From assembly GCA_964016885.1 (NCBI GenBank), contig OZ024744.1, forward strand, positions 84,258,001 through 84,322,000: a stretch of DNA of 64,000 nucleotides, in the 5' to 3' direction. Of the stretch, positions 10,759 through 40,672 are shown one piece after another (the stretch's first letter is position 1; each line of letters begins with the position of its first letter). The position numbers and the translations under genes are program-made. Origin of the DNA: Eledone cirrhosa (Eukaryota). The notes under the pieces were generated by a model. The model ran no database searches. It was not told the DNA's origin and saw nothing but the letters and a program-made list of their open reading frames with translations.

Positions 10759-11738
10759 TTTGTCGATCTCAGATTTACAGAAACCTAGCTTGGACGTTGT
10801 ATGTTATATGTGATATATATTGTATGCTATACGTTATGCGTTATGTCTTGCATTCGATGTCCACGCGATGGTCCAGGTTAGTCAAAATCTTTTCCTGAGT
10901 TCAGTTTTTATCGTTGCTATGGCAATGCGGCCAGACTGTCGGTCGCTTTATTTGATTTGCAAACCTGTCTAAACGTATTGTTATAACTCTGAGGTAATAT
11001 TCTCCATCGAGTGCTAAGCTGCATTCCGAATTTGCATTCGTTAGCTTGACCGCAGCCAAAAGCTTCGTTGATGCTGTACTAAAATTTGTATTTTTAACTC
11101 CTAGAATTAACGATTAACTGATTAATTTAATTAGACAATTCTATTGATTGATTAATTGTATGTTTGTTTGATAACTTCTGGTTGAGTGCTTTATTCGGTT
11201 TGTCTAAGGGAATTTCATTCCTTTGTCCCAAATTTCGAATTGACCGCCAAAACGGGGGTTACCTCCCTTTGTGAAAACCACGTGTCTTTAGCGAAAATTA
11301 CTGCTAGAAAATACACCCGCCGAGGCTATAGAACGCAAGACTTGTTGATGAAGTAAATTATTTGTTCTGTCGTCAAAGGCCATTAACTTGCAGACCCCTG
11401 CAAGCGGAATTTGTCGATCTCGGATTTACAGAAATCTAGCGTGGATGTTGTATGTTATATGTAATGTCCATTGTATGCTATACGTTATGCGTTATGTGTT
11501 GCATTCAATGTCCACGCGATGGTCCAGGTCAGTCAAAATCTTTTACTGAGTTCAGTTTTTTTCGTTGCTATGGCAATGTGGCCAGACTGTCGGTCGCTAT
11601 ATTTGATTTGTAAAGCTGTCTAAACGTATAGTTAAAACTCTAGGGTAATATTCACCATTGAGTGCTAAGTTGCATTTCGAATCTGCATTCGTTAGCTTGG
11701 CCGCAGCCAAAAGCTTCGTTGATGCTGTACTAAAATAT
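10759..11738 (+). repeat. 651-bp HHR-containing tandem unit (1.5 copies) in (TA)n
   Basis: 10759-11090 is repeated at 11410-11738 (GAAA at 10780 and 11431). A diverged inverted fragment lies at ~55343-55600. Confidence 0.85.
11340..11529 (+). ncRNA. Type I hammerhead, U3 variant, with large stem II and III domains
   Basis: ACTTG-TTGATGA-aGTAAATT...GATTTACa-GAAA-tc..GCGTGGA...TCCACGC..gg-TC-CAGGT. Confidence 0.75.
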
Positions 11739-11996
11739 GTGTATATATAAATATATATATATATATATACATATATATATATATATATATATATAAATAT
11801 ATATATATTGTTATACTTGGGGAGGGTCATATTGTTGTAATAATATTGCCAGAAATAATAACAGAACATACTCACTGTTTGGTTGGTTTTCGCTTCTGTA
11901 TCTTTTATATCTCTACAGATAATTCATTCGGTCCTCAATGTTTACCATTGACTGACCAACGGTCAAAAATACAGATATAAATACATATATATAGTC

Positions 11997-12040
11997 TAAC
12001 AAAGTTCTTTCGTTGCACATCTGCAACATCATCAGTGGTA
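11997..12040 (-). ncRNA. Type I hammerhead motif
   Basis: TACCA-CTGATGA-tGTTGCAgatgTGCAAC-GAAA-GAAC-TT-TGTTA, with one stem I mismatch. Homolog at 24517-24559. Confidence 0.7.
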
Positions 12041-12242
12041 CTCTATATATAAATATATATATATATATACATATATATGCATATATATATACATATATAT
12101 ATATATATATATATATAGAGAGAGAGAGAGAGAGAGAGAGAGAGAGATTTTGAGTTTATGTTGGTTGTATACCAACACCTCAGTATGCAGGCTGGAGCAC
12201 TCGACGATGTGCGCAGGTTGGTTTGGTTACTCCGGAGTAGTG

Positions 12243-12600
12243 TAAAATAAAGTTAAATAAAAGTCAAATGATTAAAATTTAGCTTCGTTTATTACTGCTA
12301 TATATATTTCAGTGACAGCCATCTTTGGCTGTGACCTCTTCAGGCAGTTTGAATTAGTATGGTATAGACAAGTACATATGTTGTTTAGGTTTTTCTCATG
12401 CAGTATTTTGAACCATTCTATTACTTCTCTCGTGCATGACCATTGCTGTAATAACCTAACAACATATGTACTTGTCTATACCATACTAATTCAAACTGCC
12501 TGAAGAGGTCACAGCCAAAGATGTCTGTCACTGAAATATATATAGCAGTAATAAACGAAGCTAAATTTTAATCATTTGACTTTTATTTAACTTTATTTTA
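12243..12600. repeat. Fold-back element with an HHR in each arm
   Basis: Arms 12243-12391 and 12453-12600 are near-perfect reverse complements. HHR ACTGC-CTGAAGA-stemII-GAAA-TATATA-TA-GCAGT at 12495-12549 (+) and 12294-12348 (-). Confidence 0.88.
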
Positions 12601-12624
12601 TATATATATATATATATATATATA

Positions 12625-36765: not shown

Positions 36766-37126
36766 ATATATATATATATATATATATATATATATATGAA
36801 TAAAAAATATATATACATATATATATACATATGTATATATACATATATATATACATATATATATATATATATATACATATATATATATACATATATATTT
36901 ATATACATATAGACTATATATATACATATATACATATATATATATATAGACATATATATATATATATATATATATATATACATATATATATATATATATA
37001 TATATATATATATATATATATATATATATATATATATATATATATATATATATATATATATATATATATATATATATATATATATATACATATACAAGAA
37101 TCAAAGCTATGTTCAAAGCATTTATT

Positions 37127-37173
37127 CACTTACAATTGTTTCATCCAAACCTAGGCTTGGAATCTTCGGAGCA
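37127..37173 (-). ncRNA. Type I hammerhead motif, U4C variant
   Basis: TGCT-CCGAAGA-tTCCAAGCctagGTTTGGAt-GAAA-CAATTG-TA-AGTG. Confidence 0.72.
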
Positions 37174-38644
37174 TTTTTCAATGCTTGTACAAATAATTGA
37201 CCTCCTATCCAACGCAAGAGACATGCAGATACATATATATATATGTGGAGTGGAGTGACATATATTATACTATACTATATTTGTATAGCAATTCAAATTT
37301 AAAATCAAAATTAAAATTAAAATTAAAATACATGCGGCAGATAACACAGATAATGCAAGAGGATAGTTCGATAATCAGATCTAGTAGATAGTGTATGCGT
37401 TAGTCATACATGGAGCATGCAAGTGTGTCTCATTTATATACGAGTATTGTGTGGTAAGGTATTACATGTAATACAAGCACTTTAAGCGGGTAAGCAAGAG
37501 TATTATGGTGGTTGTAGTGGGAGGTTATTTTTTGTATAGATCAAAAAAGTATGTGTGCAGAAAAAGAAAAGAAAAAGAAAGTTATAGTTTTCGCATCCAC
37601 CACCATTTTCACATTCAGAAAAAGGAAGTTATAGTTTTCACATCCACCACATATATTACGATGAATTCGTATTGAATGTTTGATGTAGTAAATGATTGTA
37701 ACATATTGAGGCTCAGTGTTATTTAATTCATATTTATAGACTAGGTTCTTTCTGCTGCGAGAATTTACAGTGCTATATTATCCGGAAGTAGGTGTGTAAT
37801 TAAGGGGAGTTAATGCGTAAGGGGAGGTAACTAGCTGATTCTCATAACTAAATTCATTGTTCTAACATACCTTAAATGGTGCCTCAATTGAGTCTCTTAT
37901 ATAAAAGGTTATATATTTATATTTTATTTTAAATACAGTCTACTCTATCATAATGTATTATAGGTATTTATAGGAAGTTGATTACTCCTTATTATATAGC
38001 GCTATAATTGAATTTCCCACACAAAGTGCTATATCTTTATATCAAAATTCACTGTAAACACAGTCTACTCCCAAAACATATCAAAGGACCAATTAGAATT
38101 TTGTCTACATAACCCTTGGTAAGCTATGGAGCAGCGTACGGCTGTTTGCATGATAGAATCAAATACATCTCTTGGGTAAACAAATACATCCCTCATTTAC
38201 AATGTCATTACTCCATCCATTAATCTATACATGCATATATAATTCATATATAATTCATTGAACCACCCTACATATAAGTTAGACAGATCTCTTATGTTAA
38301 TAAATTAATCCTATATATATATATCTAATGTTATTACTCTATACATTTAATTACAGATGCATATATAATTCATTGTTGTATCTAGTATTTAAAGTTTATA
38401 TAGACTGTATCATATTTCAATCCCTATATAATTATAAGTAATTAAAAGTAATTATATTAAAAGTTGGTGTTTATGAAGATATTTCTAGGGTATAAAGTTA
38501 TAGATAGATAGAATGATTTGTGTCGAGGAAAGGGTGGATCAGAGAGTGTGCTGTAGTGGTGGAAGGCAAGCACTTGAGGTGTGGTGTTAGAAGCGGTGAT
38601 GGGTTCAAGTATGACATTATATATATATATATATATATATATAT

Positions 38645-39430
38645 ATAAGTATGTATACGCACATACATATATGTGTACAGACGCACAGTAGTATATACAT
38701 ACATACACACATTTATATGATATGTGTACGAATGGGTTTACCGAACATTTATTATAATGTTCGGTTTGATACCTAAATATAAGTATGTATACGTACATAC
38801 ATACGTTTACGAACAAACCAAACATTATAATAAATGTTCGGTAAGCCCATACGTACATATATATATATATATGTGTGTGCATGTATGAATATATATATAT
38901 ACTACTGGGCGTCTGTACACATATATGTATGTACGTATGCATACTTATATTTAGGTATCAGCTGTACTAAGAGTGAGAAATGAAATTTCGTTTCATTGTT
39001 TTCCATTTATCGTTTTCGGTATGCCCGGCCGACTAAACTCACTCGATATGCAAATTAGGCTGCTCAGCCGTTAATATGCATAAGGAAAGTATATACTTTC
39101 AGACGTTCAATCATCTGACAGAAAGGTATATGATGCTGTCGATAGCTAATAAGCTTGAAACTAGTACATCGTTCCTTTGTCAGTGTTGAACAAAAGGGCG
39201 ACGATAGTTGCCGAGAACTGTACGACGTAATCCGGACTGTTTGTTTACAAACAAACCGAACATTATAATAAATGTTCGGTAATCCCATACGAACATATAT
39301 ATATATATATATATGTGCATGTATGTATATATATACTACTGTGCGTCTGTACACATACATGTATGTACGTATACATACTTATATTTAGGTATCAGCCGTA
39401 CTAATGAAATTTCGTTTCATTCTTTTCCAT
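38645..39430 (+). repeat. Second copy of the 429-bp HHR family with inverted 5' segment
   Basis: 38955-39430 is homologous to 3574-4052, and 38645-38768 is inverted relative to 38815-38950. HHR at 39130-39172 has compensatory stem I (GATG/CATC) but core CTGTCGA. Confidence 0.8.
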
Positions 39431-39431
39431 T

Positions 39432-40672
39432 TCGATTATTCTACTATATTTAGCTCTAGACCTAGCTATTGACCAGTTAATTTTATTGTTCATTTTTTGT
39501 CGATTCTATTAAATGATGAATAGCTCCTGTTTATTTTAACATGTCTATTGAGTACTCTTATTCGATATGTGTATTTCCACATTTTCCCGAATATTTTTTG
39601 CGGATATAGAGGTTATCTCCCTTGCTGAATTCCATGTGCGTTTTTTCAACTTGAGTTATGCCTTTTTATTCGTTCGGACAAAAGCTCGTTGAGGAAGTAA
39701 ATTCCGGTCCGCTGCTTTCTAGAAGTCTTATATATTTTTATATGGGCTGATAGAGGGCGGTTTAAGGATTTACAGAAACCCAAGAAGCTAGATTTACCAT
39801 CTTTCTAGCGGGTCCGGGTATGCTTTTTACATTCATTTGATATATTGATTTATTGATATTTTATCTGAGTGTCCCGAATCTTCCAGATCGTAATTTTTCG
39901 GTCGTATGGTTGATTTTAGACATGTTCTATGTGTGTCGGTATTTTAACGATAGTTATAGCTCTGATTTATCTGAATTATTGAGCCCTCTGCCGCTCATTT
40001 CGAATTTTGTTTATCGTGAACTCGTGCGCCGATTTTTCGATACTCGATTATTCTACTATATTTAGCTCTAGACTTAGCTATTGACCAGTTAATTTTATTG
40101 TTCATTTTTTGTCGATTCTATTAAATGATGAATAGCTCCTGTTTATTTTAACATGTCTATTGAGCACTCTTATTCGATATGTGTATTTCCACATTTTCCC
40201 GAATATTTTTTGCGGATATAGAGGTTATCTCCCTTGCTGAATTCCATGTGCGTTTTTTCAACTTGGGTTATGCCTTTTTATTCGTTCGGACAAAAGCACG
40301 TTGAGGAAGTAAATTCCGGTCCGCTGCTTTCTAGAAGTCTTATATATTTTTATGTGGGCTGATAGAGGGCGGTTTAAGGATTTACAGAAACCCAAGAAGC
40401 TAGATTTACCATCTTTCTAGCGGGTCCGGGTATGCTTTTTACATTCATTTGATTTATTGATTTATTGATATTTTATCTGAGAGTCCCGAATCTTCCAGAT
40501 CGTAATTTTTCGGTCGTATGGTTGATTTTAGACATGTTCTATGTGTGTCGGTATTTTAACGATAGTTATAGCTCTGATTTATCTGAATTATTGAGTCCTC
40601 TGCCGCTCATTTCGAATTTTGTTTATCGTGAACTCGTGCGCCGATTTTTCGATACTCGATTATTCTACTATA
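39432..40672 (+). repeat. 612-bp tandem dimer, diverged homolog of the 615-bp array, with U3-variant HHRs
   Basis: TCGATTATTCTACTATA at 39432, 40044 and 40656. HHRs at 39684-39819 and 40296-40431: GCTCG-TTGAGGA-aGTAAATTCC...GGATTTACa-GAAA-CCC...GGG-TC-CGGGT. Confidence 0.9.

What the first reader, a model, noticed from the sequence alone, without database searches (positions are those of the whole stretch)
11340..40431. Three diverged tandem-repeat families share a non-canonical U3 hammerhead with giant stems
Seen: the 651-bp (11340-11529 +), 615-bp (four copies, 12873-14852 -) and 612-bp (39684-39819 and 40296-40431 +) units share one layout: stem I, UUGANGA, stem II closed by GUAAA/UUUAC, GAAA, stem III, GUC, stem I. 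Position 7 varies freely (U, C, G), as expected for hammerhead N7. Stem I covaries (ACTTG/CAGGT, ACTCG/CGGGT, GCTCG/CGGGT). The stem II domain stays 78-79 nt despite different sequence, and stem III is 34 or 88 nt. Known: canonical hammerheads need a C3-G8 pair, and changes there usually reduce cleavage. Inference: U3 with G8 retained in all three families suggests a maintained variant rather than decay. Standard CUGANGA/short-stem searches would miss it.
Basis: partly seen in the sequence, partly recalled or inferred. Interest (0 to 1): 0.92.

Follow-up and report, generated by a model that had tools for sequence, protein, structure and literature searches.

The report
Wobble-core hammerhead retrozyme family
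These repeats are copies of a protein-free jumping element inserted into TA microsatellites, each unit carrying a predicted self-cutting hammerhead RNA whose normally fixed C–G core pair occurs as U·G, U–A or C–G in different spreading lineages, which likely makes them a natural test of how weak the ribozyme can be and still spread.

Summary
The motif is real at all seven sites and forms a type I hammerhead three-way junction. Rfam misses it. Corrections: the 615- and 612-bp units are 83% identical subfamilies of one family, and the 651-bp element is a 1.5-mer. Copies have a fixed 3' end fused to (TA)n, variable 5' truncation and array-private variants fixed in every unit. This fits a non-LTR retrozyme likely mobilised by Penelope-like elements, a known class. 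"G8 retained" is only half true. Genome-wide pattern counts for the 3–8 pair are U·G 1153, U–A 1693 and C–G 13; all other combinations together give 20, and G12 changes 11, all scattered. Trees show U·G in the deep lineages, two U–A clades and one C–G clade. The window's 615-bp array is a recent A8→G8 reversion that has spread to at least five loci. Long stem II domains, with an extra base on each side, also occur in C3–G8 sister families here. New: a wobble 3–8 pair as a long-lived, spreading state, with the full compensatory path visible. Cleavage and circular RNA are untested.

The parts
10758..11740 (+). Family A insertion: 1.5 units of 651 bp, 5'-truncated inside stem II of the first ribozyme, 3' end fused to (TA)n
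11340..11529 (+). Family A hammerhead: U3 11345, G8 11350, extra A 11352, G10.1 11353, C11.1 11429, extra A 11430, G12 11431, C17 11524; predicted cut 11524/11525
10758..10879 (+). 3' half of a second family A hammerhead (GAAA, stem III, GUC|CAGGU; junction 10873/10874), 651 bp upstream of the complete one
12627..15235 (-). Subfamily B array: about 4.25 units of 615 bp, identical; fixed 3' end in (TA)n 12599-12629; one array-private base in every unit
12873..13007 (-). B hammerhead (also 13488-13622, 14103-14237, 14718-14852): U3 13002, G8 12997 (A8 in most B relatives), G12 12917, C17 12878; predicted cut 12878/12877
39423..40670 (+). Subfamily C array: 2 units of 612 bp, 83% identical to B, 3' end in (TA)n
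39684..39819 (+). C hammerhead copy 1 (U3 39689, C17 39814)
40296..40431 (+). C hammerhead copy 2 (U3 40301, C17 40426), stem I carries an A.G mismatch
55339..55604 (-). 5'-truncated family A relative: end of stem III, cut site and 3' tail into (TA)n

Best explanation
These are copies of a protein-free, (TA)n-inserted tandem retroelement (a non-LTR retrozyme, likely mobilised by Penelope-like elements) whose units each carry a predicted type I hammerhead that likely self-cleaves slowly through a U3·G8 wobble or a U3–A8 pair in place of C3–G8. Steps: (1) an array or 1.5-mer is transcribed (inferred). (2) The hammerhead cuts after GUC once per unit (predicted). Stem III is a stable hairpin (-6 to -36 kcal/mol), so one unit should fold alone without the dimer that short palindromic stem III hammerheads need (predicted). 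(3) The monomer is ligated to a 612-651 nt circle (inferred). (4) A Penelope-like RT/GIY-YIG protein nicks a (TA)n tract and primes internally about 200-255 nt past the cut site. The fixed 3' end and TA junction are shown; the enzyme is inferred. (5) RT runs across the cut junction and round the circle, giving 5'-truncated copies from under 1 to over 25 units. The structures are shown; rolling circle is inferred. The 3-8 contact is kept paired but tolerates a wobble. U·G is the state of the deep lineages, U–A arose at least twice, C–G at least once, and A8 went back to G8 once (tree-based). A weak core may spare the circle from re-cutting now that stem III no longer forces dimerisation (speculative).
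For: Fold and covariation: 96.6% of 296 cells paired in 20 chosen representatives; stem I pair 2.2-1.2 is UA 11/CG 8/UG 1; pair 3-8 is UG 12/UA 5/CG 3; slid controls 20-49% paired (rows chosen by me and related). Genome counts: U·G 1153, U–A 1693, C–G 13. Other states are rare and listed at separate places: V3/H8 8, U3/Y8 6, R3/G8 6, G12 changed 11 (one unrelated chance hit in each). Trees with positions 3, 7 and 8 masked (54 B/C rows and 58 A rows of 113 extracted) show U–A clades in B (support 96) and A (100), a 9-row C–G clade (98), and G8 B copies nested among A8 copies. 3' ends: a TA run starts 234-256 nt after the cut in 30 of 34 B/C copies and 201-245 nt in 39 of 46 A copies; 5' ends vary. 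Private variants are fixed in all complete units of an array (26 of 26 at C1:119.98M, 3 of 3 in the window), and position 8 is uniform within each of 9 arrays: this points to a one-unit bottleneck. Circular sense units fold better than shuffles (z -3.5 to -4.7, up to 12 shuffles) and antisense less so (-0.3 to -2.2). A GIY-YIG ORF remnant in the window ends in the same geometry: hammerhead with an 85-nt stem II domain, then 202 nt, then (TA)n. Literature: tandem type I hammerhead retrozymes and their circles (PMC7229834); Penelope origin (bioRxiv 10.64898/2026.07.22.740005); internal RT initiation at AT-rich targets (PMC11167929).
Against: No RNA or cleavage evidence was obtained. [quoted passage not shown] In the Poseidon_Ac system ribozyme-dead RNA inserted normally in vitro and no RNA-seq ends mapped to the cut site (PMC11167929). 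8 of 9 Xenopus retrozyme dimers did not cleave in vitro. My genome patterns fixed most core letters, so only positions 3, 8 and 12 were tested without circularity. Singletons are what neutral decay gives, so only amplified lineages speak to selection, and there are few independent changes. Two C3·A8 copies lie in one small unresolved clade. C–G revertants did not sweep. No autonomous partner sharing sequence was found. The 'weak core replaces dimer brake' idea has exceptions: C3–G8 with long stem III occurs in A's C3 clade and in L210.
Confidence: 0.62

Rival explanations
1. The U·G core is practically dead and cutting is not needed: Penelope-like RT copies uncut read-through transcripts, and arrays grow or homogenise at the DNA level (unequal exchange). 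The fold survives by descent or as a binding site.
For: Ribozyme mutants did not affect insertion in vitro. Single mutants at this pair were low-activity. The large C1:81.7M array shows satellite-like haplotype mosaics, and mosaics also appear in two young arrays. U–A copies outnumber U·G among tandem units.
Against: G12 changes (11 against about 2860) and unpaired 3-8 states never appear as arrays. The only amplified changes at 3 and 8 keep a pair. The A8→G8 lineage produced homogeneous arrays at 5 loci on 4 contigs. U·G loci are as frequent as U–A loci on C1:1-99 Mb (26 against 22).
Confidence: 0.2
2. U·G units do not cut unaided. They need help, either from the Penelope protein or a host chaperone, or in trans from U–A or C–G sibling RNAs that swap strands.
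For: The Poseidon_Ac ribozyme is described as protein-assisted. Penelope hammerheads are slow in vitro. Stem I is sequestered in the predicted circle folds of all three units.
Against: The junction is at or near the MFE of the isolated motif. Family A and subfamily C are mostly U·G and are too diverged from the abundant U–A B units for easy strand exchange.
Confidence: 0.13
3. Ordinary satellite or SINE-like repeats with a chance resemblance to a hammerhead.
For: No Rfam hammerhead match.
Against: Core and helices are kept between A and B/C, which otherwise barely align (best E about 0.01). Covariation. Many sibling families have the same geometry with canonical cores.
Confidence: 0.03

Closest known systems
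Non-LTR retrozymes of animals (Cervera and de la Peña 2020, PMC7229834, passages read; Li, Clavereau and Pollet 2026, bioRxiv 10.64898/2026.07.22.740005, parts 1-3 of 5 read)
   Same: Tandem non-coding units with one type I hammerhead each, GC below 45% (35-38%), monomers to long arrays, co-occurring with Penelope-like elements.
   Different: Core U3 instead of C3. Stem II domain about 80 nt. Stem III is a long stable hairpin. Units of 612-651 bp are longer than the circles of about 170-400 nt in the 2020 paper, but inside the 51-972 bp range of the 2026 preprint.
Penelope-like element pLTR hammerheads (Cervera and de la Peña 2014, PMC4209133, parts 1-2 of 4 read)
   Same: Extra base between 9 and 10.1, conserved G10.1-C11.1, short stem I, enlarged stem II; a U3-A8 core variant with about 1,300 hits in Schistosoma mansoni.
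   Different: Those have minimal or palindromic stem III and are thought to act as dimers. The parts I read mention no U3·G8 lineage and no extra base between 11.1 and 12. Fungal and protist forms have a large stem III, as here.
Natural hammerhead core variants (Perreault et al. 2011, PMC3088659; PMC7151607; passages read)
   Same: U3-A8 covariation is reported. One saltern variant is written with U3 and G8 plus a 2-nt insertion.
   Different: Those are rare single examples. Here U·G holds in more than 1100 genomic matches and several amplifying lineages, with both Watson-Crick end states alongside.
Neptune, Naiad and Chlamys Penelope-like elements and non-autonomous Chlamys such as MRC1 (PMC8557442, passages read)
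   Same: Microsatellite targeting, partial tandems, head-to-tail non-autonomous insertions.
   Different: No ORF-bearing partner sharing sequence with this family was identified.

Membership tests
Type I hammerhead ribozyme (consensus) | Three helices round the core, stem I open | tested here: met
Type I hammerhead ribozyme (consensus) | U4 G5 A6 N7, A9, G12 A13 A14, A15.1-U16.1, H17 | tested here: met
   Present at all 7 window sites; G12 changed in 11 scattered matches only
Type I hammerhead ribozyme (consensus) | Watson-Crick pair between 3 and 8 | tested here: not met
   U·G wobble in all 7 window copies and 1153 genome matches. Met in U-A (1693) and C-G (13) relatives. Filed as a variant, not a consensus member.
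Type I hammerhead ribozyme (consensus) | G10.1-C11.1 directly flanking the core | tested here: inconclusive
   The G-C pair is present in 20 of 20 but set off by one extra base on each side. The same 1x1 loop occurs, with covarying stem II, in a C3-G8 sibling family of 3815 matches.
Type I hammerhead ribozyme (consensus) | Match to an Rfam hammerhead model | tested here: not met
   None at E<=10 on the three regions; none among 150 listed of 179 window matches
Type I hammerhead ribozyme (consensus) | Stem I-stem II tertiary contact | not tested
   No search was made for a loop or pseudoknot contact
Type I hammerhead ribozyme (consensus) | Self-cleavage 3' of H17 | not testable with these tools
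   Needs a bench assay or raw RNA reads
Non-LTR retrozyme | Tandem units each with a type I hammerhead motif | tested here: met
   (with the variant core above)
Non-LTR retrozyme | No protein-coding capacity, low GC | tested here: met
   No frame of 150 aa in the units; longest stop-free frame in B arrays 62 aa; GC 35-38%
Non-LTR retrozyme | Expressed as circular RNA | not testable with these tools
   No raw RNA reads were available
Non-autonomous Penelope-like derivative | Fixed 3' end, 5' truncation, partial tandems, microsatellite target | tested here: met
Non-autonomous Penelope-like derivative | Sequence shared with the pLTR of an ORF-bearing element | tested here: inconclusive
   No partner found; the same geometry is seen at a GIY-YIG remnant

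The most novel reading that the evidence does not exclude
A clade of animal retrozymes has run for much of its history on an active hammerhead with a U3·G8 wobble and a 1x1 loop before G12. It swapped the usual dimer-only brake (palindromic stem III) for a self-sufficient stem III plus a detuned core. The whole C–G / U·G / U–A compensatory path of a catalytic tertiary pair is caught among replicating lineages, with near-isogenic G8 and A8 arrays.
Probability: 0.35. Interest if true: 0.75.

Novelty: new variant of a known kind. Interest (0 to 1): 0.55.

Why it matters
Whether Penelope-type hammerheads must cut for the element to move is open. Here natural arrays differ only at G8/A8, and both have recently spread, so cleavage rate can be set directly against genomic success. 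It would also widen the hammerhead consensus (wobble 3-8 pair, extra base before G12, 80-nt stem II) and show that Rfam and CUGANGA descriptors miss thousands of copies in one genome: about 2850 matches in this family plus 1238 in a second, mostly U3-A8 family.

Tried and rejected
Expression: no RNA holder listed. Four runs laid were contigs only and show no ends; the one RNA-guess run did not cover the ribozyme. This is used neither for nor against expression. Autonomous partner: a compact U3 pattern gave 2 hits against 1 control. Both proved to be a C3-G8 family with a stem II domain of about 100 nt, matched by accident. Penelope protein fragments in fetched loci showed no consistent link to the units. 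Earlier scan findings: none. Prior report of a U3·G8 retrozyme lineage: not found in searches. However, four papers that could bear on it or give U3·G8 rates were not held: PMC2151028, PMC1986816, PMC4447102, PMC5785218. The held supplement text of PMC9901934 had no hit for the mutant label; bioRxiv supplements were not seen. Rejected: three independent families; G8 retained throughout; giant stem II as a unique trait; a strict rule 'U3 goes with long stem III' (exceptions). No covariance model was built and R-scape was not available. The organism was not determined.
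Full report
OBSERVATION. A motif scan finds the core followed by GTAAA and, about 80 nt on, TTTAC-N-GAAA at exactly seven window sites: 11345, 39689 and 40301 on +, and 13002, 13617, 14232 and 14847 on -. Domain lengths (78-79 nt stem II; 34 or 88 nt stem III) and the predicted cut after GUC match the finding. Self-BLAST shows that the 615-bp (B) and 612-bp (C) units are 83% identical end to end, whereas the 651-bp unit (A) hardly aligns to them outside the ribozyme. 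So there are two families. A is a 1.5-mer. The four B copies are identical. The second C copy has a stem I mismatch. The register is U3-U4-G5-A6-N7-G8-A9, one extra base, G10.1...C11.1, one extra A, G12-A13-A14-A15.1. Rfam gives no hammerhead match.

IS IT A HAMMERHEAD FOLD? With narrow flanks the three-way junction is the MFE or within 2 kcal/mol in 18 of 20 representatives. On 20 rows I chose across lineages, 96.6% of 296 cells pair, against 20-49% for slid controls. Stem I shows both-side changes, the five basal stem II pairs never vary (partly forced by my search pattern), and pair 3-8 takes UG 12, UA 5, CG 3. The rows are related, so this is suggestive rather than a significance test.

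THE 3-8 PAIR GENOME-WIDE. The genome is 3.0 Gb. Exact patterns give Y3/G8 1166, of which C3 13; U3/A8 1693; V3/H8 8 (4 C.A, 3 A.A, 1 unrelated; control 12); U3/Y8 6; R3/G8 6; G12 changed 11. Counts are of units, not loci. On C1:1-99 Mb, where both listings are complete, U.G and U-A loci number 26 and 22. Contigs from three public runs also read A8 at window position 12997 (14949.5 of 15309.3, 12.8 of 12.8 and 3 of 3 depth) and list no change at U3; 3 rows were not shown. Trees were built with positions 3, 7 and 8 masked, on 54 B/C and 58 A rows of 113 extracted; one chance hit was left out, and the rows are enriched by my choice for rare states. C is U.G (22 of 23 rows). B has U.G at its base, then a U-A clade (support 96), and the G8 copies including the window array are nested at its tip. 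One G8 and one A8 row are identical once masked. In A, U.G is general, with one U-A clade (100) and one C-G clade of 9 rows (98); other C3 or A8 rows are scattered. The trees are unrooted quick trees, so direction rests on nesting and on U.G being shared by A, C and basal B. The window's B G8 is therefore a reversion, not a retention, and it has spread to at least five loci.

THE ELEMENT. Mapping window units onto fetched loci shows a common 3' end fused to (TA)n and scattered 5' ends, with copies running unbroken over the cut site. The TA run starts 234-256 nt after the cut in 30 of 34 B/C copies and 201-245 nt in 39 of 46 A copies; six copies of A's U-A clade end 9-63 nt after it. In nine B arrays (3-26 complete units) position 8 is uniform within each array, and two arrays carry private variants in every unit. 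Two arrays also show mosaics, and a large C-type array looks like an older satellite. Units have no long ORF. As circles, sense strands fold better than shuffles, with stem I sequestered (weak, few shuffles).

CONTEXT. The window holds many Penelope-like remnants (two GIY-YIG hits just under the Pfam cut-off) and at least seven other predicted hammerheads with C3-G8 cores and short palindromic stem III. Several have long stem II domains: 95 nt at +27177, and 85 nt at -34595 in the 3' UTR of the GIY-YIG remnant, 202 nt before (TA)n. A C3-G8 sibling family of 3815 matches has the same extra bases on both sides of a covarying stem II. A further family of 1238 matches is U3-A8 in 96 of 100 listed, never U.G among them, with a 9-bp stem III. 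Long stem II is thus common here. Long stem III goes with U3 in the two large families that have it, but minor C3-G8 lineages with long stem III exist.

MECHANISM. Shown: the fold-compatible sequence, the paired 3-8 states in amplified lineages, fixed 3' ends, the TA target, 5' truncation and array homogeneity. Inferred: transcription, cleavage, circularisation, and Penelope-driven target-primed rolling-circle reverse transcription. Against cleavage by the U.G form: low activity of mutants at this pair in one construct (PMC9901934, passages), ribozyme-independent insertion in vitro (PMC11167929, passages) and 8 of 9 inactive Xenopus dimers. I put the best explanation at 0.62, a dead-but-tolerated core at 0.20, assisted cleavage at 0.13 and chance at 0.03.

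COMPARISON AND NOVELTY. The class is known: non-LTR retrozymes (PMC7229834, passages) as Penelope derivatives (bioRxiv 10.64898/2026.07.22.740005, parts 1-3 of 5). The extra base after A9 and U3-A8 are published for Penelope hammerheads (PMC4209133, parts 1-2 of 4; PMC3088659, passages). One saltern variant with U3 and G8 is cited in PMC7151607 (passages). The C3-G8 Watson-Crick pair is described in PMC3884650 (passages). Passages of PMC8557442, PMC6765202 and PMC8490949 were also read. Hammerhead numbering is recalled and agrees. My searches found no report of a U3.G8 retrozyme lineage, but four relevant papers were not held. Verdict: a new variant of a known kind, interest 0.55.

Noticed in passing
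window 36236-36767 (hammerhead core at -36371); L168-L197: Inverted-repeat copy of a C3-G8 hammerhead repeat family (3815 genome matches, units of about 555-570 bp) with extra bases on both sides of a covarying stem II and palindromic stem III.
   Followed up: partly
L064 minus strand 2468; L198-L213: Second large family (1238 matches), U3-A8 in 96 of 100 listed, C10.1-G11.1 flanked by U.U, 9-bp stem III; small C3 sublineage with long or short stem III.
   Followed up: partly
window 16765-17694 (-) and 26554-27479 (+): Partial tandems of 663 and 687 bp with C3-G8 hammerheads (cores 17120 and 27177), long stem II domains, ending in (TA)n.
   Followed up: partly
window 34292-35840 (-): Penelope-like GIY-YIG remnant with a 3' UTR hammerhead (85-nt stem II domain) and an inverted partial copy upstream.
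   Followed up: partly
window 3750 (+), 12243-12600 (both strands), 25478 (+), 18623-19635 (-): Further predicted C3-G8 hammerheads with short palindromic stem III, one as an inverted pair between the A and B insertions.
   Followed up: no
window 36147 (-): Compact U3-A8 hammerhead-like candidate with palindromic stem III; single, unvalidated.
   Followed up: no
L164 (G000:C1:81709000-81718999): In a large C-type array, 9 of 15 units carry C15.2 to A together with G16.2 to U, restoring a stem III pair; the G16.2 change occurs alone in 4 of 14 units of L165. May be coincidence.
   Followed up: partly
L113, L124, L127, L131, L132, L133: The U3-A8 clade of family A meets a TA run only 9-63 nt after the cut site, unlike about 215 nt in other A copies.
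   Followed up: no
L027, L081-L091: The C3-G8 clade of A and its U.G sister row share a shortened stem III base (2 bp then mismatch), which appears to predate the change to C3.
   Followed up: partly
L166, L167: C3-G8 family with a stem II domain of about 100 nt, extra A before G12 and GUC|CAGG junction; possibly a distant relative of A.
   Followed up: no
window 6702-8957 (-): Broken frames that look like a Helitron-type Rep/PIF1 helicase (recalled resemblance, not tested).
   Followed up: no
window 55681-56290 and 56140-57432 (+): 16-bp tandem array next to broken frames resembling a MULE-type transposase (recalled resemblance).
   Followed up: no
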